From the IMG/VR virus record IMGVR_UViG_2778261067_000009: a stretch of DNA of 40,848 bases. One strand, 5' to 3'. Both the position numbers and the translations under genes were made by a program. Of this stretch, positions 28,381 through 39,306 are shown in pieces (position 1 is the stretch's first letter; each line of letters begins with the position of its first letter). The stretch comes from a virus (Duplodnaviria > Heunggongvirae > Uroviricota > Caudoviricetes). The notes under the pieces were generated by a model. It did no database searches. It was not told the DNA's origin and saw nothing but the letters and a program-made list of their open reading frames with translations.

Positions 28381-28448
28381 TTGTTCCAGCTTGTTTCACG
28401 TTGTAGCCCTTTGTGCAACGATCGGTGTAGTTAATGGTGTAGTTAATT
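28381..28448. repeat. attL: Left direct repeat of the island (attL candidate), core CGGTGTAGTTAATGGTGTAGT
   Basis: TTGTTCCA..TTGTTTCA...GTGCAACGATCGGTGTAGTTAATGGTGTAGTTAATT recurs with few changes at 39249-39306. Confidence 0.55.
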
Positions 28449-29699
28449 GTGATGACCGGAATCAAAATTATGAGCAGAGCACTTAACAAACTGAGCGATA
28501 CACAGCTGAGGAAAATCAACGGCACACCCGCCCAAAAAACAGCCTTTCTTAATGACGGTGGAAACCTGAGCGTCAGGCATTCAACCAGTGGCCTTTTAAC
28601 CTGGTATTTCACTTACAGGGCCGGAACGGGAAGGGGGGCACCACCGGAACGCATTAAGCTGGGAAATTATCCTGATCTGAGCCTGAAATCAGCCAGGGAA
28701 AAAGCCGCCCAGTGTCGCGCATGGCTGGCAGAGGGGAAAAATCCACGTCATGAGCTTAATTACACCGTACAGGAAGCGTTAAAGCCGGTAACGGTTGGCG
28801 ATGCGCTCACCTACTGGCTTGAGTCGTACGCAAAGGAAAACCGCGTGGATTATGCCGCCCTGAAAAAGCGCCTTAATAATCACGTAATACAGCACATTGG
28901 TGCTATGCCGCTGGATAAATGCGAGCTACGGCACTGGCTGGCCTGTTTTGACCAGGTGGCAAAGCGAACGCCTGTTACTGCCGGATTCTTGCTACAGACG
29001 TGCAAACAGGCGCTTAAGTTCTGCCGGAGGCGGCGCTATGCAATCAGCAACGTTCTTGATGATATGAGTGTGGCGGACGTTGGGAAAAAACCGGATATAA
29101 GCGAGCGTGTCTTAAGCACCAAAGAACTGGGCGAATTATTGCAGGCACTGGACAAAAAAATATTCTCCCCCTACTACATCGCGTTAATCCGCCTCCTGAT
29201 TGTGTTCGGATGCCGGACGGTAGAACTGAGGTTATCGGAGATCAGCGAGTGGGATTTTACCGAAATGCTCTGGACCGTGCCGAAAGAACACAGCAAAACG
29301 AAGGTGGCAATATTCCGGCCCATACCGGAAGCAATACTGCCGTTCGTCACGCAGCTGGTGGAGCAGAACAGGCACACGGGCTTATTGCTGGGGGAAGTGA
29401 AACAGGAAACAAGCGTGTCGCAGTACGGCAGATTAGCGCACAGGAGGCTAAATCACCCTCACTGGTCACTACATGACATCCGGCGCACCTTTACAACGAT
29501 GCTGAGCGATTTAGGCGTGGATCCTCACGTCGTGGAGCAGCTTACAGGCCACCAGATGCCAGGAATGCAGCGAGTTTATAATCATTCCCGTTATCTGGAT
29601 GCTAAACGCAATGCGCTGGATATGTGGATGGAGCGGTTAGGGATACTGGCGGGAACACATGAAAACGTAACCGCACTACCAGCAGCCAGAAGAAAATAA
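28449..29699 (+). CDS. int: Tyrosine-type site-specific integrase (P4/CP4-57-like family)
   Basis: 416 aa; C-terminal catalytic region with ...HDIRRTFTTMLSDLGVDPHVVEQLTGHQ...VYNHSRY; abuts the left repeat; true start may be the internal Met at 28470. Confidence 0.9.
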   Translation: MMTGIKIMSRALNKLSDTQLRKINGTPAQKTAFLNDGGNLSVRHSTSGLLTWYFTYRAGTGRGAPPERIKLGNYPDLSLKSAREKAAQCRAWLAEGKNPRHELNYTVQEALKPVTVGDALTYWLESYAKENRVDYAALKKRLNNHVIQHIGAMPLDKCELRHWLACFDQVAKRTPVTAGFLLQTCKQALKFCRRRRYAISNVLDDMSVADVGKKPDISERVLSTKELGELLQALDKKIFSPYYIALIRLLIVFGCRTVELRLSEISEWDFTEMLWTVPKEHSKTKVAIFRPIPEAILPFVTQLVEQNRHTGLLLGEVKQETSVSQYGRLAHRRLNHPHWSLHDIRRTFTTMLSDLGVDPHVVEQLTGHQMPGMQRVYNHSRYLDAKRNALDMWMERLGILAGTHENVTALPAARRK

Positions 29700-30064
29700 T
29701 TTTTTTCGTGTTTTTTCAGTATGCGCATACTGGATAAGCACACAGATACAACGGCGAACAATGTGAAACAACGTGGAACAACCACGAACAAGAGGCGAAA
29801 AAGTACACAGGTTTATAAGTGACTGATTTTATTTGTGTGACTGTTTTTTTATACATTAGCGAATAACGCTTTAACGCGTGAGAAAAAAGGCATGAAACAA
29901 TATTTTATGCCTTTGTATTAACATGAATTTAAAAGATTTTATTCTTACTGTTTCATTTTCTGTAAATCATACATCCTCAATATTTGCCATTCATCACTCT
30001 AGCGGGAACAATACGACACAATAAGACACCTGATGACTCTTTAAGAAACGAAAGGGGGGCAATA

Positions 30065-30253
30065 GTGTTAAGCACTGATCGGTTTATACGTGAAAAAGAA
30101 TGCGAAAAACTAACCGGCCTTAGCCGTACGTGTCGCTACCGCCTGGAAAAGGCCGGACAATTCCCATCACGTCGTAAACTTGGCGGTCGTTCCGTTGGCT
30201 GGTCTTTATCCGAGGTTCTGGCCTGGAAGGATAGCTGCAAGGCAGTTCATTAA
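30065..30253 (+). CDS. alpA: AlpA-family transcriptional regulator/excisionase-like protein
   Basis: 62 aa HTH protein ...LTGLSRTCRYRLEKAGQFPSRRKLGGRSVGWSLSEVLAW... typical of AlpA; GTG start 30065 with AAAGGGGGG RBS. Confidence 0.75.
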   Translation: MLSTDRFIREKECEKLTGLSRTCRYRLEKAGQFPSRRKLGGRSVGWSLSEVLAWKDSCKAVH

Positions 30254-30522
30254 TCACGCTGGCGGCACGCAGCCGCCACACATCAATCATCTGAACACAG
30301 AGCTATAACCATGAAGATTGAATATACGCCAGAACGTGGGCGGGGATTCGTTCGCCCTGGTGAAACTGAAAAACAACAAAATTGGGGTTTTTCAGACATA
30401 AAAAAAGCGGCCCCGAAATGGAGCCGCCTTTCTGAACAGATAACCCGCTGCGCCGTTTGTGTGTGTGATCCCAAACATAAGAACGGCAATGATAGTCGCT
30501 ATCAGGCTGGTGGGCAATGCTA

Positions 30523-30711
30523 TCAGTCTGGTTCAGTTCGTTGCCATACCTGCAATGAGCGCTTTTCCCTGTACTCTTTAAGGAATTGCTCAAGGGCAAA
30601 AGCACATGGCGCGAATCTTTCTGATTCATGCTCTATCTTTCTGCGCCGTCTTTTCCGTGCCGGTGATAATGTTTTGGTCAATTCTTTATCGGTCATTGTG
30701 TTGTCCTGCAT
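30523..30711 (-). CDS. Hypothetical small basic protein (62 aa)
   Basis: ORF downstream of the RHH gene on the - strand; no convincing RBS; KRRRRK basic patch; could be spurious. Confidence 0.25.
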   Translation of the reverse strand: MQDNTMTDKELTKTLSPARKRRRRKIEHESERFAPCAFALEQFLKEYREKRSLQVWQRTEPD

Positions 30712-30753
30712 AGCAATGCGCCGTAATACCTTACACCACGGCGCTGATGGTGA

Positions 30754-37706: not shown

Positions 37707-38249
37707 ATGAAATCGCACCTGATGAACAAAAAAAACATGGCGAAAAGCTGCCGTGTAAGTGCGACAGCGTTCGACAAGTGGGGAGTGACTCCCGTTGAAC
37801 GTAAAGGCCGTGAGGCGTTTTACGATGTTGCCAGCGTGATAGACAATAGGGTTAACAATGCAATTAGCCAGCTTACAAACGACAAAGGCGATATTGATGA
37901 TGATGAACTCTTACGAGTCAGGATCAGATTACTGACAGCACAGGCGGAGGCGCAGGAACTTAAAAACGAGCGCGATCGCGGTGACGTGATTGATACTGAG
38001 TTTTGCCTGTACGCGCTTTCAAAGCTGGCGAGTCAGATTTCATCAATCATGGACAGCCTCCCGCTTACTATGCAAAGGAGCTTCCCACAGATTACCCACG
38101 CCATGCTGGATAGGCTTAAAAGGGAAGTGGTTAAAGCCTGTAATGCCAGTGCCAGAGTTGCCGACAACCTCCCACAGATACTGGCTGATTACTTGAAAGA
38201 AACAACCGGAAACGTACCGGAAAAGTTGCTACAGAAGAAAGGCGAGTAA
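37707..38249 (+). CDS. Island-encoded terminase small subunit, lambda Nu1 homologue
   Basis: 180 aa; C-terminal ...DTEFCLYALSKLASQISSIMDSLPLTMQRSFPQIT...LPQILADYL... parallels the prophage Nu1 ...DTGFCIFALSKLAMALSSTLDSIPLSMQRQFPDLT...LPDLLDEYI...; N-terminal HTH region diverged. Confidence 0.8.
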   Translation: MKSHLMNKKNMAKSCRVSATAFDKWGVTPVERKGREAFYDVASVIDNRVNNAISQLTNDKGDIDDDELLRVRIRLLTAQAEAQELKNERDRGDVIDTEFCLYALSKLASQISSIMDSLPLTMQRSFPQITHAMLDRLKREVVKACNASARVADNLPQILADYLKETTGNVPEKLLQKKGE

Positions 38250-38389
38250 CAGACGCGCAATTATTGAACAAAACTGAGAAACGACATGAAAGCGTCATAA
38301 ATCGCCATTTTAGATGATTACCGTGTCGTTTCTTTTTATTGTGTATCTATTTAAAAACAAATAGTTATGTTCGAGAAGTACCGACATGC

Positions 38390-38450
38390 TTTTTCCAGAA
38401 AAATTTTCATAAACAGATAAAAACCGCGAGGTCGCCGCCCCGTAACGGGC
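38390..38450 (-). other. cos: Island cos site 2 in inverted orientation: cosN AGGTCGCCGCCC (38409-38420), cosQ-like on the right, lambda-type cosB elements on the left
   Basis: Reverse complement reads GGGTCCTTCCTGG..CCCGTTACGGGGCGGCGACCTCGCGGTTTTTATCTGTTTATGAAAATTTTTCTGG, then GAAACGACACGG and CATGTCGTTTC inverted elements resembling lambda cosB R sites. Confidence 0.7.
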
Positions 38451-38504
38451 CATAATTCCAGGAAGGACCCGACGACACCAGACTATCAGAGCGATGGGGG
38501 CACA

Positions 38505-38786
38505 ATGACAGAAGCCGAACTACTGGGATTAATCCGCCGCGTCGCCGGAATCAGCCAGCAGCATGACGAACAGGCCACACAGCCGGACAGCGTGACCGCT
38601 GAAAATTATGTGCGTGTTGTAGCGGAAGTGATGCGCCGTGATGGTATAGAACTTAATGGCGTTGATATGCGCAACATACGGAACCGCGTTCTTGAAATGC
38701 TGGCCTACAATCGCCGCGTTGAACTGTATCGGGAGAAAGAAAAAATAACGTACCACTGGAAGAAGCCGGAACGGCTGCGGCGGTAA
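38505..38786 (+). CDS. Hypothetical protein (93 aa) downstream of cos2
   Basis: ATG with GATGGGGG RBS; no family recognised. Confidence 0.45.
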   Translation: MTEAELLGLIRRVAGISQQHDEQATQPDSVTAENYVRVVAEVMRRDGIELNGVDMRNIRNRVLEMLAYNRRVELYREKEKITYHWKKPERLRR

Positions 38787-39248
38787 CTTGCTGATATTCC
38801 CGATAACGCAAAATTGCGCTGGCTACATCCCTCACATCTGAGGACTGTTAACCAGAAGGCCGGAATATATTCACAAACTACGAAATTTTCGTAGTTTAAT
38901 TAATGGTCAGATTAATCGCTAACCCGCTGATATTTTCGGAAACCTCAATTTGAGGAAGTCGGAAGCGTCACCCTTCATATTCTGAATGGTCATAATGACC
39001 ACGCAGACCATCAAGGCAACCACAACGAACATCGTTACGGTTGGAGCTTTTACCCCACTGGGGGAAAGGTATTACGATAATCATAACACCTACCGAACAG
39101 GTAAAACCCACCAGCCTGATTAACAGTTAACCGGAAAAAAAATCCGGTAGCCCCGTTATGGGGATCCCCATATCGACATTAACGCCCCTCATGAATTGGT
39201 GCGCTTCCCCCTGGAAAGATTACCCGCCTGTATATTTCTTGTGTCTAT

Positions 39249-39306
39249 TTGTTCCACGTTGTTTCATACAGTGCACCGAACGGTGTAGTTAATGGTGTAG
39301 TCAATT
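39249..39306. repeat. attR: Right direct repeat of the island (attR candidate)
   Basis: TTGTTCCACGTTGTTTCA...GTGCACCGAACGGTGTAGTTAATGGTGTAGTCAATT, direct imperfect copy of 28381-28448; 82 bp from the phoQ stop. Confidence 0.55.

What the first reader, a model, noticed from the sequence alone, without database searches (positions are those of the whole stretch)
28381..39306. Integrase-bounded 10.9 kb satellite-like island that encodes its own lambda-type capsid shell but no terminase large subunit, portal, protease or tail
Between roxA and phoQ (adjacent in reference E. coli) lies an island flanked by ~60 bp imperfect direct repeats. It has the regulatory and replication layout of P4/PICI-type satellites: int, alpA, RHH regulator with operator, icd-like gene, AAA_25 helicase plus iterons, SSB. 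Its morphogenesis set is unusual: homologues of lambda E (major capsid), D (decoration), Nu3 (scaffold) and Nu1 (small terminase) plus cos sites, in non-lambda gene order (E-D-Nu3-cos-TerS). TerL, portal, protease, connector, tail and lysis genes are all absent. It therefore cannot make particles alone, yet it would replace the helper's shell, scaffold and DNA-recognition subunit, plausibly to build smaller procapsids sized for an ~11 kb genome. A lambda-like prophage with the matching helper functions (A, B, C, tails) sits 5 kb away. To my knowledge described E. coli PICIs redirect packaging without their own MCP, and capsid-forming PICIs carry a fuller module including TerL and portal, so this partial E/D/Nu3/Nu1 mimicry may be an undescribed satellite strategy.
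Basis: partly seen in the sequence, partly recalled or inferred. Interest (0 to 1): 0.92.

Follow-up and report, generated by a model that had tools for sequence, protein, structure and literature searches.

The report
Known E. coli phage satellite (PICI)
This 11.1 kb island is an ordinary, already catalogued E. coli phage satellite (a "classical" PICI, close kin of EcCICFT073 and EcCIRM12579); having capsid-like genes and a small terminase but no portal, large terminase or tail is the standard make-up of this family, not a new strategy.

Summary

It is not new. The island sits at the same roxA/phoQ attachment site as EcCICFT073, the prototype E. coli PICI, with the same 10-bp core (GGACATATTT). 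It is about 90% identical to EcCICFT073 over most of its length (capsid protein 95%, decoration protein 99%, Nu3-like protein 93%).

It has the same architecture as EcCIRM12579, named in 2018. It is 97.5% identical over all 11,101 bp to the O26:H11 11368 element, whose published PICI coordinates match my boundaries exactly. SatelliteFinder defines "PICI Type A" as int + regulator + replicase + capsid gene + terS, and found 97% of them in E. coli.

[quoted passage not shown] The small-procapsid idea therefore lacks support.

The true borders are 28289-39389.

Two questions remain open: what the conserved capsid module does, and how the untested TerS variant, which replaces Rpp, directs packaging.

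The parts
28289..28298 (.). attL core GGACATATTT (left junction)
   Evidence: Alignment with the empty K-12 roxA-phoQ site. Same core as listed for EcCICFT073 and EcCIRM12579 in Table S1 of PMC6092414.
28424..28447 (+).
   Evidence: 4 copies in the window, 0.22 expected. The function is inferred.
28470..29699 (+). Tyrosine integrase (409 aa)
   Evidence: Pfam Arm-DNA-bind_3, Phage_int_M, Phage_integrase. 97% identical to the EcCICFT073 Int.
30065..30253 (+). alpA regulator
   Evidence: Pfam Phage_AlpA, E = 1.5e-16. 94% identical to the EcCICFT073 AlpA.
30523..30711 (-). 62-aa protein of unknown function (phrog_21027)
   Evidence: 100% identical over 57 aa to its CFT073 counterpart.
30754..30933 (-). 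YlcI/YnfO-family small (RHH-like) regulator
   Evidence: NCBIfam NF041551, 59.7 bits; phrog_949.
30984..31035 (.). Operator array: 3 x palindrome GTGTTYAACAC, overlapping a promoter-like site
   Evidence: 3 found, 0.04 expected.
31133..31339 (+). Icd-like gene (C-terminal part of a long open frame 30311-31339)
   Evidence: NCBIfam phage_ICD_like, 68 bits.
31329..32324 (+). Three small genes: 154 aa, 77 aa and DUF4222
   Evidence: PHROGs 2512 and 2196; Pfam DUF4222.
32321..33721 (+). RepA-type (AAA_25) replicative helicase
   Evidence: Pfam AAA_25, E = 2.4e-43. Module swapped relative to the EcCICFT073 primase.
33720..33931 (.). Replication origin: two sets of AAAAGTGAGG iterons around an AT-rich core
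   Evidence: This layout is described for Gram-negative PICI origins in PMC6092414.
33922..34173 (+). 83-aa protein of unknown function (phrog_1231)
34170..34580 (+). SSB
   Evidence: Pfam SSB. 98% identical to the EcCICFT073 SSB.
34591..34863 (+). PerC-family regulator (accessory gene)
   Evidence: Pfam PerC, E = 1.4e-42. perC is listed as the accessory gene of this PICI type.
34990..35214 (+). 74-aa protein of unknown function (phrog_1957), bracketed by two copies of a repeated terminator hairpin
35466..35672 (+). 68-aa protein of unknown function (phrog_3255), first gene of the capsid operon
35672..36727 (+). Major capsid protein homologue (lambda E family), orthologue of EcCICFT073 c1499
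   Evidence: Pfam Phage_cap_E. 94.6% identical to c1499. 46% identical to the neighbouring prophage's E. dN/dS 0.06-0.27.
36739..37074 (+). Head decoration protein homologue (lambda D family), orthologue of c1500
   Evidence: Pfam HDPD. 99% identical to c1500. dN/dS 0.10-0.20.
37087..37500 (+). Nu3-like scaffold-domain protein (137 aa)
   Evidence: BLASTP to residues 416-493 of the prophage gpC, E = 1e-11. phrog_1999 and the C-terminus of phrog_53. dN/dS 0.21-0.38.
37501..37528 (+). Intrinsic-terminator-like hairpin (third copy of GCCGGAGAAATCCGGCTTTTTT)
   Evidence: family D2.
37531..37706 (+). cos1: cosQ-like flank, exact cosN (37562-37573) and island-specific cosB up to terS
   Evidence: The cosB + terS cassette is conserved in another PICI lineage.
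37707..38249 (+). Nu1-type small terminase (180 aa), in the slot where EcCICFT073 has rppA
   Evidence: Pfam Phage_Nu1; phrog_57, E = 1.7e-52. 46% identical to N15 gp1 over residues 5-166. 49% identical to the prophage Nu1 over the C-terminal 110 aa only. dN/dS about 0.17.
38400..38471 (-). cos2: inverted copy of cos1 with exact cosN (38429-38440)
38505..38786 (+). 93-aa protein of unknown function (phrog_1561)
   Evidence: 88% identical to its CFT073 counterpart.
39282..39305 (+).
39380..39389 (.). attR core GGACATATTT, overlapping the phoQ stop codon
866..22935 (+). Candidate helper: late region of a lambdoid prophage (cosN at 866-877, Nu1, gpA, portal, S49 protease, D, E, tail genes)
   Evidence: The helper role is inferred, not shown.

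Best explanation
The island (28289-39389) is a classical Gram-negative phage-inducible chromosomal island of the EcCICFT073 / EcCIRM12579 lineage. In SatelliteFinder terms it is a 'PICI Type A'.

**Shown by sequence.**
- It is integrated by a P4-type tyrosine integrase at the 10-bp core GGACATATTT at the 3' end of phoQ.
- It carries the family's rightward alpA-driven gene set and a RepA-helicase/iteron replicon with its own SSB.
- It carries a perC accessory gene and a capsid operon (E-like, D-like, Nu3-like).
- It carries a packaging cassette: an island-specific cosB and a Nu1-type terS, bracketed by two inverted cos sites with exact lambda cosN.

**Inferred from the experimentally studied sister element EcCICFT073.**
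- A lambdoid helper in lytic growth switches on alpA.
- The island then excises and replicates into concatemers.
- Helper-made proheads, tails and lysis functions package and release it.

**Inferred for this variant.** Rpp re-programmes the helper's TerS. Here the island's own full-length TerS instead binds the island cosB next to cos1 through its divergent N-terminal winged-helix domain. It recruits the helper's large terminase through its conserved C-terminal half. The helper motor is thereby diverted to island DNA.

**Likely packaging size.** Four units of 11.09 kb make 44.4 kb, a lambda-sized headful. This is consistent with the phage-sized DNA seen for EcCICFT073.

**Capsid, decoration and scaffold genes.** They are functional genes under purifying selection. 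Their role is unknown and, in the sister element, dispensable for transfer.
For: - **Same site.** The attachment site and core match EcCICFT073 and EcCIRM12579.
- **Identity to EcCICFT073.** About 90% nucleotide identity over most of the island. Orthologous proteins: Int 97%, AlpA 94%, SSB 98%, MCP 94.6%, Dec 99%, Nu3-like 93%.
- **Catalogued copies.** The architecture is identical to EcCIRM12579, including the 180-aa TerS. The island is 97.5% identical over 11,101 bp to O26:H11 11368 positions 1619447-1630554. Those are exactly the PICI coordinates in Table S2 of PMC6092414.
- **Family definition.** All five SatelliteFinder PICI core components are present and no forbidden components.
- **cos sites.** Exact cosN occurs twice, as in EcCICFT073.
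- **Cassette swap.** Sequence between the two cos sites is replaced exactly from about 30 bp past each cosN, so cosB and the specificity protein travel together. The same cosB + terS unit occurs at 86% nucleotide identity (TerS protein 87%) in a PICI lineage whose MCP is only 54% identical.
- **TerS domains.** TerS shares 49% identity with the adjacent prophage's Nu1 only in the C-terminal 110 residues. It is 46% identical to N15 gp1 over its whole length.
- **Selection.** dN/dS is 0.06-0.38 for MCP, Dec, the Nu3-like protein and TerS. That is in the range of int and SSB.
- **Prevalence.** At least 80% of the island is present in 362 of 5426 complete E. coli genomes.
Against: - Nothing here shows excision, replication or packaging of this copy.
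- No TerS-type classical E. coli PICI was found to have been tested experimentally. A 2025 paper names only EcCICFT073 and EcCIEDL933 as characterised E. coli PICIs.
- Binding of the island TerS to cos1's cosB and to a helper TerL is inference from homology.
- Whether the neighbouring prophage is intact, or is the helper, is unknown.
- The conserved capsid module has no assigned role. The account of the element's biology is therefore incomplete.
Confidence: 0.85

Rival explanations
1. The island replaces the helper's shell, scaffold and DNA-recognition subunit with its own E-, D-, Nu3- and Nu1-like proteins. With the helper's portal, protease, TerL and tails it builds island-specific, possibly smaller, capsids.
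For: - MCP, Dec and the Nu3-like protein are full length and under purifying selection.
- They have no phage homologue above about 48% identity among 50,697 phage records, so they form a satellite lineage.
- MCP and Dec co-diverge (both about 54% identical between two PICI lineages) while TerS stays 87% identical. That is what one expects if Dec binds the island's own MCP lattice.
- SaPIbov5 Ccm is a precedent for a satellite capsid homologue that changes capsid size (PMC8569155, listed).
Against: - In EcCICFT073, whose MCP, Dec and Nu3-like proteins are 93-99% identical, deleting c1499 or c1500 changed neither lambda interference nor transfer by the resident prophages.
- All DNA packaged with lambda was phage-sized (PMC6092414; restated in PMC6893505, and PMC10111431).
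- Expressing the post-ori genes one at a time, only rpp blocked lambda.
- The published tests do not exclude full-size mixed or island-made shells, nor other helpers.
Confidence: 0.2
2. The island is a decaying remnant of a lambdoid prophage. The E-, D-, Nu3- and Nu1-like genes are leftovers with no function.
For: The morphogenesis set is incomplete, and a lambdoid prophage lies nearby.
Against: - The gene order is not collinear with lambda.
- All genes are intact, with dN/dS 0.06-0.38.
- The same 11-kb architecture is conserved in hundreds of genomes and at several attachment sites.
- It has its own integrase, AlpA, replicon and cos sites.
- The nearest phage proteins are below 50% identical.
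Confidence: 0.02
3. The island is a capsid-forming PICI (cf-PICI) or a P4-like satellite rather than a classical PICI.
For: - It shares int, alpA and replication-type genes with both families.
- It encodes a capsid protein, as cf-PICIs do.
Against: - There is no TerL, portal, protease, HNH or head-tail adaptor/connector, which define cf-PICIs.
- No island protein matched a P4 Sid, Psu or Delta family in Pfam or PHROGs.
- Its size is 11.1 kb, against about 15 kb for EcCIEDL933.
Confidence: 0.02
4. The island TerS mainly acts as an interference factor. It would poison the helper's TerS by forming mixed oligomers through the shared central and C-terminal domains. Packaging would rely on the helper TerS acting at the phage-like cos2.
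For: - The oligomerisation and TerL-binding half is 49% identical to the prophage Nu1.
- The cosB side of cos2 resembles phage-type cosB more than that of cos1 does. In CFT073 the cos2 cosB is nearly identical to this window's prophage cosB.
- Rpp works by heteromerising with helper TerS.
Against: - The cosB next to cos1 co-travels with terS across PICI lineages, which suggests cognate recognition.
- In EcCICFT073, cos1 is the site needed for transfer, and deleting cos2 increases transfer.
- cos2 is truncated in the TW11681 island, which keeps terS.
Confidence: 0.1

Closest known systems
EcCIRM12579 (E. coli O55:H7 RM12579) and the O26:H11 11368 / O157:H7 EC4115 PICIs listed in Fillol-Salom et al. 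2018 (PMC6092414, Tables S1 and S2)
   Same: - Same roxA(ycfD)-phoQ site and GGACATATTT core.
- Same gene-for-gene architecture, including the RepA helicase, MCP, Dec, the 137-aa protein, the 180-aa TerS and the 93-aa protein.
- 97.5% nucleotide identity over the whole 11,101 bp to the 11368 copy, with boundaries identical to the published coordinates.
   Different: Only strain-level substitutions. For example, the O26 copies carry a C-to-A change in the cosN of cos1, while this copy keeps the canonical cosN. I found no experimental work on these copies.
EcCICFT073, the prototype classical E. coli PICI (PMC6092414; PMC6739421)
   Same: - Same attachment site, integrase, alpA, SSB and perC.
- Same capsid operon: c1499 and c1500 plus the Nu3-like gene.
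- Two inverted cos sites and the 93-aa gene.
- About 90% nucleotide identity over most of the island.
   Different: Three modules are swapped:
- RepA helicase and ori instead of the primase and ori.
- An extra 74-aa ORF.
- A Nu1-type TerS with its own cosB instead of RppA with its cosB.

The island TerS has no detectable similarity to RppA or to the solved RppC chain. Packaging specificity is therefore presumably supplied by a complete TerS rather than by re-programming the helper's TerS.
SatelliteFinder 'PICI Type A' (de Sousa et al. 2023, PMC10085698)
   Same: All five core components are present (integrase, AlpA-type regulator, replicase, capsid-morphogenesis gene, terS), in the usual order and without forbidden tail, holin or portal genes. 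97% of Type A elements were found in E. coli.
   Different: None at this level of description.
Capsid-forming PICIs (EcCIEDL933; bioRxiv 10.1101/2022.09.08.507074)
   Same: Shares int, alpA and rep-type genes and encodes a capsid protein and a TerS.
   Different: Lacks TerL, portal, protease, HNH and head-tail connectors, so it cannot make or fill capsids on its own. Its capsid and terS belong to lineages separate from those of cf-PICIs, according to PMC10085698.
pac-type SaPIs with their own TerS, and SaPIbov5 with the capsid homologue Ccm
   Same: It works like them in principle. A satellite TerS would redirect the helper TerL to satellite DNA, and the satellite carries a capsid-protein homologue.
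   Different: It is unrelated in sequence and uses cos rather than headful packaging. No Ppi equivalent was identified. No capsid size change was seen for the E. coli sister element.

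Membership tests
Classical Gram-negative PICI (Fillol-Salom 2018 criteria; SatelliteFinder PICI Type A) | Integrase at the left end | tested here: met
   Pfam Arm-DNA-bind_3 and Phage_integrase. 97% identical to the EcCICFT073 Int.
Classical Gram-negative PICI (Fillol-Salom 2018 criteria; SatelliteFinder PICI Type A) | AlpA/MerR/Stl-type regulator next to int, with rightward unidirectional gene set | tested here: met
   Phage_AlpA, E = 1.5e-16. All genes but two small ones are on the + strand.
Classical Gram-negative PICI (Fillol-Salom 2018 criteria; SatelliteFinder PICI Type A) | Primase/replicase module followed by an iteron origin (two iteron sets around an AT-rich core) | tested here: met
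   AAA_25 RepA helicase. Iterons at 33720-33931. Layout as described.
Classical Gram-negative PICI (Fillol-Salom 2018 criteria; SatelliteFinder PICI Type A) | Capsid-morphogenesis (capsid homologue) gene | tested here: met
   Phage_cap_E. Orthologue of c1499.
Classical Gram-negative PICI (Fillol-Salom 2018 criteria; SatelliteFinder PICI Type A) | Small terminase homologue | tested here: met
   Phage_Nu1 and phrog_57.
Classical Gram-negative PICI (Fillol-Salom 2018 criteria; SatelliteFinder PICI Type A) | No tail, holin/lysis, portal or head-tail connector genes; size about 10-12 kb | tested here: met
   11,101 bp. All ORFs are accounted for and none has such domains.
Classical Gram-negative PICI (Fillol-Salom 2018 criteria; SatelliteFinder PICI Type A) | PICI-specific attachment site shared with named members | tested here: met
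   ycfD(roxA)-phoQ site with core GGACATATTT.
Classical Gram-negative PICI (Fillol-Salom 2018 criteria; SatelliteFinder PICI Type A) | Helper-phage-dependent induction, replication, packaging and high-frequency transfer | not testable with these tools
   Shown experimentally only for the sister element EcCICFT073.
Rpp-type packaging redirection (EcCICFT073, RppA/B/C) | An Rpp protein (139-154 aa) encoded next to cos1 | tested here: not met
   The slot holds a 180-aa Nu1-type TerS. There is no BLASTP similarity to RppA. The 137-, 154- and 180-aa proteins give no hit to any solved Rpp chain.
Lambda Nu1-type small terminase | Nu1-family sequence over the whole length, encoded just downstream of cosN-cosB | tested here: met
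   - Pfam PF07471, 84 bits against a cutoff of 30.
- phrog_57 over residues 1-174.
- 46% identical to N15 gp1 over residues 5-166.
- The start codon lies 134 bp after cosN.
Lambda Nu1-type small terminase | Specific binding to cognate cosB and to a TerL N-terminus | not testable with these tools
   Inferred from homology and from co-inheritance of cosB with terS.
Capsid-forming PICI (cf-PICI) | TerL, portal, protease and head-tail adaptor/connector genes | tested here: not met
   No such domains or ORFs are present.
P4-like satellite | psu-delta-sid capsid-hijack operon, epsilon (ash) and alpha primase-helicase | tested here: not met
   No island protein matched these families in Pfam or PHROGs. 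Only int and alpA are shared.
Satellite capsid size redirection by a capsid homologue (SaPIbov5 Ccm type) | Production of satellite-sized capsids that depends on the capsid homologue | not testable with these tools
   The literature on the 95%-identical c1499 is negative with lambda. Other helpers are untested.

The most novel reading that the evidence does not exclude
The conserved, co-evolving E-like, D-like and Nu3-like genes of Type A PICIs may really assemble. With the helper's portal and protease they would form island-made or mixed shells, which the island's own TerS then fills. These very common elements would then be partial capsid-formers, lying between classical PICIs and cf-PICIs. 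This could have been missed for three reasons: island-made shells may be full-size; helper shells can substitute for them; and only the Rpp-type element has been tested, mainly with lambda.
Probability: 0.2. Interest if true: 0.6.

Novelty: already known. Interest (0 to 1): 0.2.

Why it matters
As a discovery it does not matter much. The element, its attachment site, its capsid genes and its terS are all in the 2018-2023 PICI literature and in SatelliteFinder's definition.

Two points could still interest people who work on satellites:
- **The common variant is untested.** The TerS + cosB cassette carried here occurs in 1080 of 5426 complete E. coli genomes. The RppA cassette of the only characterised classical E. 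coli PICI occurs in 269. The commonest packaging variant is therefore the untested one. It looks like the full-length TerS from which Rpp was proposed to derive.
- **The capsid operon has no known role.** It is under clear purifying selection, and the capsid and decoration genes co-diverge. Yet the only published knock-outs show no phenotype. That is a recognised open question.

Tried and rejected
- **Att sites.** I tested whether the 75-nt flanking repeats are the att sites. They are not. The empty K-12 site places the junctions about 90 bp further out, at a 10-bp core.
- **Hidden Rpp.** I looked for an Rpp among the 137-, 154- and 180-aa proteins by searching solved structures and by BLASTP against RppA. 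Nothing was found.
- **Helper by close homologue.** I looked for a phage with a close homologue of the island MCP or TerS to name a helper. The best hits are only 46-48% identical.
- **Defence systems.** I scanned eight small island proteins and two ORFs at the end of the neighbouring prophage against PADLOC. There were no hits.
- **Known RNAs.** Rfam gave nothing at gathering thresholds. The only result was a sub-threshold SymR-like hit upstream of icd.
- **Which strand codes at the RHH locus.** I tried to decide by dN/dS whether the long + strand frame or the antisense RHH gene is the coding one. This is not decidable, because the third codon positions coincide.
- **Literature.** I searched for any study of TerS-type classical E. 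coli PICIs or of the capsid genes' function. There is nothing beyond the negative c1499/c1500 knock-outs.
- **Data access.** Three fetched loci (L002, L005, L007) never reached the scripting sandbox. The dN/dS analysis therefore used the window, L001, L003 and L006 only.

Full report
**1. What is in the sequence.**

Between roxA (27100-28230, minus strand) and phoQ (39388-40848, minus strand) lies a block of genes almost all on the plus strand. Profile searches give, in order:
- A tyrosine integrase with an arm-binding domain.
- AlpA.
- Two small minus-strand genes, one of them a YlcI/YnfO-type RHH-like regulator.
- An Icd-like gene.
- Three small genes, including a DUF4222.
- An AAA_25 RepA-type helicase.
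- SSB.
- PerC.
- Two small genes.
- A lambda-E-family major capsid protein.
- A lambda-D-family decoration protein.
- A 137-aa protein.
- A Nu1-family small terminase.
- A 93-aa protein.

The 137-aa protein aligns with the C-terminal, Nu3-equivalent part of the neighbouring prophage's gpC (39% identity, E = 1e-11). It also matches the C-terminus of the PHROG head-protease family.

The DNA sites are as follows:
- Two exact lambda cosN 12-mers lie at 37562 (+) and 38429-38440 (-), inside a 72-nt inverted repeat that brackets terS.
- Iterons AAAAGTGAGG flank an AT-rich core just after the helicase gene.
- Three copies of the palindrome GTGTTYAACAC lie between the RHH gene and icd; 0.04 are expected by chance.

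There is no large terminase, portal, protease, connector, tail or lysis gene. A lambdoid late region lies at about 866-22935, 5 kb to the left. It carries cosN, Nu1, gpA, a lambda-type portal, an S49 protease, D, E, a tape measure, J and a tail fibre.

**2. Boundaries.**

Alignment with the empty K-12 site shows, however, that chromosomal sequence stops at a 10-bp core. This core, GGACATATTT, is at 28289-28298 and 39380-39389, the latter overlapping the phoQ stop codon.

The element is therefore 28289-39389, or 11,101 bp with both core copies. The internal repeats end in tandem GGTGTAGTTAAT units: four copies in the window against 0.22 expected. They are best read as integrase arm-type sites. 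That reading is an inference.

**3. What it is.**

CFT073 carries, at the same roxA/phoQ site, the element EcCICFT073, the prototype E. coli phage-inducible chromosomal island. Table S1 of PMC6092414 lists it with the same att core.

The window island is about 90% identical to EcCICFT073 over most of its length. Protein identities are:

| Protein | Identity to EcCICFT073 |
|---|---|
| Int | 97% |
| AlpA | 94% |
| SSB | 98% |
| Capsid protein (c1499) | 94.6% |
| Decoration protein (c1500) | 99% |
| Nu3-like protein | 93% |
| 93-aa protein | 88% |

Three modules differ:
- The replication protein C-terminus plus ori: RepA helicase here, primase in CFT073.
- A small insert holding a 74-aa ORF.
- The stretch between the two cos sites. 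Here it holds a 180-aa Nu1-type TerS with its own cosB. CFT073 has RppA (c1503) with a different cosB.

EcCIRM12579, named in the same 2018 table at the same site, has exactly the window's architecture, including the RepA helicase and the 180-aa TerS. The window island is also 97.5% identical over its full 11,101 bp to O26:H11 11368 positions 1619447-1630554. Those are precisely the coordinates listed as a PICI in Table S2 of that paper.

**4.

The literature says otherwise:
- PMC6092414 describes the EcCICFT073 capsid (c1499) and head-decoration (c1500) genes.
- PMC10111431 states that a major capsid gene is present in 21 of 29 reference Gram-negative PICIs and is not required for helper-assisted transfer.
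- PMC10085698 defines PICIs by five core components: integrase, regulator, primase-replicase, capsid morphogenesis and small terminase. It found 375 elements with all five ('Type A'), 97% of them in E. coli.

The island meets all five criteria and has none of the forbidden components. It fails the tests for three alternatives:
- cf-PICI: no TerL, portal, protease or connectors.
- P4-like satellites: no Sid, Psu or Delta.
- The Rpp mechanism: no Rpp.

The element is common:
- At least 80% of the island is present in 362 of 5426 complete E. coli genomes.
- The capsid-to-TerS module is present in 494 genomes.

**5. Mechanism.**

For the sister element EcCICFT073 the following is experimental:
- Helper-dependent, alpA-dependent induction.
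- A functional pri-ori replicon.
- Two functional cos sites, with cos1 the one needed for transfer.
- Dependence on helper TerS.
- Packaging into phage-sized DNA with lambda.
- Rpp as the factor that binds helper TerS and redirects it to the island cosB.

For this variant I infer that the island's own TerS does the redirecting. The evidence is:
- **Position.** TerS sits where lambda Nu1 sits relative to cosN; its start codon is 134 bp downstream of cosN.
- **Family.** It is a whole-length Nu1-family protein, 46% identical to N15 gp1 over residues 5-166.
- **Domains.** It resembles the adjacent prophage's Nu1 only in the C-terminal 110 residues (49% identity). That part of lambda Nu1 carries self-association and gpA binding. 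The N-terminal DNA-binding region shows no detectable similarity.
- **Swap limits.** Similarity to EcCICFT073 stops about 30 bp past each cosN, so cosB and the specificity protein are exchanged together.
- **Mobility.** The same cos1-cosB-terS unit is found in the yejM/tRNA-Pro PICI of strain TW11681 at 86% nucleotide identity (TerS protein 87%), although that island's capsid protein is only 54% identical.
- **Selection.** TerS has dN/dS of about 0.17.

One unit is 11.09 kb and four units are 44.4 kb, a lambda-size headful. This fits the phage-sized DNA reported for EcCICFT073.

None of this was shown for the present copy. I found no experimental study of a TerS-type classical E. coli PICI. 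A 2025 paper still names EcCICFT073 and EcCIEDL933 as the only characterised E. coli PICIs.

**6. The capsid module.**

The capsid, decoration and Nu3-like genes are intact. Their dN/dS values are 0.06-0.27, 0.10-0.20 and 0.21-0.38 respectively. That is comparable to int (0.14) and SSB (0.05-0.24). They are not decaying remnants.

Further observations:
- The capsid and decoration proteins are only 46% and 36% identical to the neighbouring prophage's E and D.
- The capsid protein is at most about 48% identical to any of 50,697 phage records.
- Capsid and decoration proteins co-diverge between PICI lineages (both about 54% identical), while TerS stays at 87%. This would be expected if the decoration protein binds a lattice containing the island's own capsid protein.
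- In the TW11681 lineage, a 127-aa HTH protein occupies the Nu3-like slot.

Against a shell-replacement or small-capsid role stand the published data on the 95-99% identical CFT073 genes:
- Deletions of c1499 or c1500 affected neither lambda interference nor transfer by the resident prophages.
- Lambda-packaged DNA was all phage-sized.

These experiments do not exclude island-made or mixed shells of full size, nor effects with other helpers. I therefore keep that reading at about 0.2 probability.

**7. Extra points.**

- The TerS + cosB cassette of this island occurs in 1080 of 5426 genomes (595 at 80% coverage or more). These include Nissle 1917 and ATCC 25922, at 99.9% identity. The RppA cassette occurs in 269 genomes, 53 of them at 80% coverage or more. 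RppB and RppC were not counted.
- The cosB side of cos2 looks more phage-like than that of cos1. In CFT073 the cos2 cosB is almost identical to the cosB of the prophage in this window.
- The O26 copies carry a point change in the cosN of cos1.

**8. Verdict.**

The satellite interpretation is correct. The claim of an undescribed strategy is not.

This is a known, common, catalogued element: a classical PICI, Type A, EcCIRM12579-like. What remains open is a recognised gap rather than a discovery: the role of the conserved capsid operon, and experimental proof of TerS-directed cos packaging.

Noticed in passing
window 30254-31339 (+); also L001 4874-5956, L003 2252-3550, L006 4150-5382: A long plus-strand frame (342 aa from the ATG at 30311) is open from just after alpA to the end of the Icd-like domain. 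It stays open in four diverged islands, even though it overlaps the RHH and 62-aa genes antisense. RefSeq annotates parts of it as an 'incomplete' protein. Which strand codes here could not be settled, because the third codon positions of the two frames coincide.
   Followed up: partly
window 31060-31132 (-): A sub-threshold Rfam match to the SymR antisense antitoxin RNA (33 bits against a gathering score of 61; E = 5e-4 for an 1.8-kb search). It lies immediately upstream of, and antisense to, the leader of the icd-like ATG at 31133. The stretch is conserved in three PICI lineages. It may be a cis-antisense regulator of icd.
   Followed up: partly
window 34865-34892, 35229-35256, 37501-37528: Three copies of the same terminator-like hairpin, GCCGGAGAAATCCGGC followed by a T-run. 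They lie after perC, after the 74-aa ORF and after the Nu3-like gene, so they bracket the modules that differ from EcCICFT073 and the capsid operon.
   Followed up: no
window 38290-38440 (-), window 878-1060, L003 10600-10797: The cosB side of the island's cos2 resembles phage-type cosB more than that of cos1 does. In EcCICFT073 the cos2 cosB is almost identical to the cosB of the lambdoid prophage in this window. One cos may therefore be helper-type and the other island-type.
   Followed up: partly
L001 12182-12193 (O26 strain 97-3250): The O26-type copies of the island have GGGCGGAGACCT instead of the canonical cosN GGGCGGCGACCT at cos1. Their cos2 and this window's cos1 are canonical.
   Followed up: no
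L006 (TW11681, yejM/tRNA-Pro site) 8617-11502: A PICI of another lineage has a capsid protein only 54% identical to this island's, but TerS and the 93-aa protein are 87% identical. An HTH protein sits in the Nu3-like slot and cos2 is truncated. The packaging cassette therefore moves between PICI lineages.
   Followed up: partly
L007 (strain K56-43-un) 2198-11434: [quoted passage not shown] This is a helper-embedded PICI of the kind described in PMC10111431. It also carries two abortive-infection-type genes.
   Followed up: no
window 1-327 (+): An ORF that runs into the window start has a TonB C-terminal domain (Pfam, E = 1e-14). It lies just upstream of the prophage cos site, in the position of a lambdoid late-region moron.
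   Followed up: no
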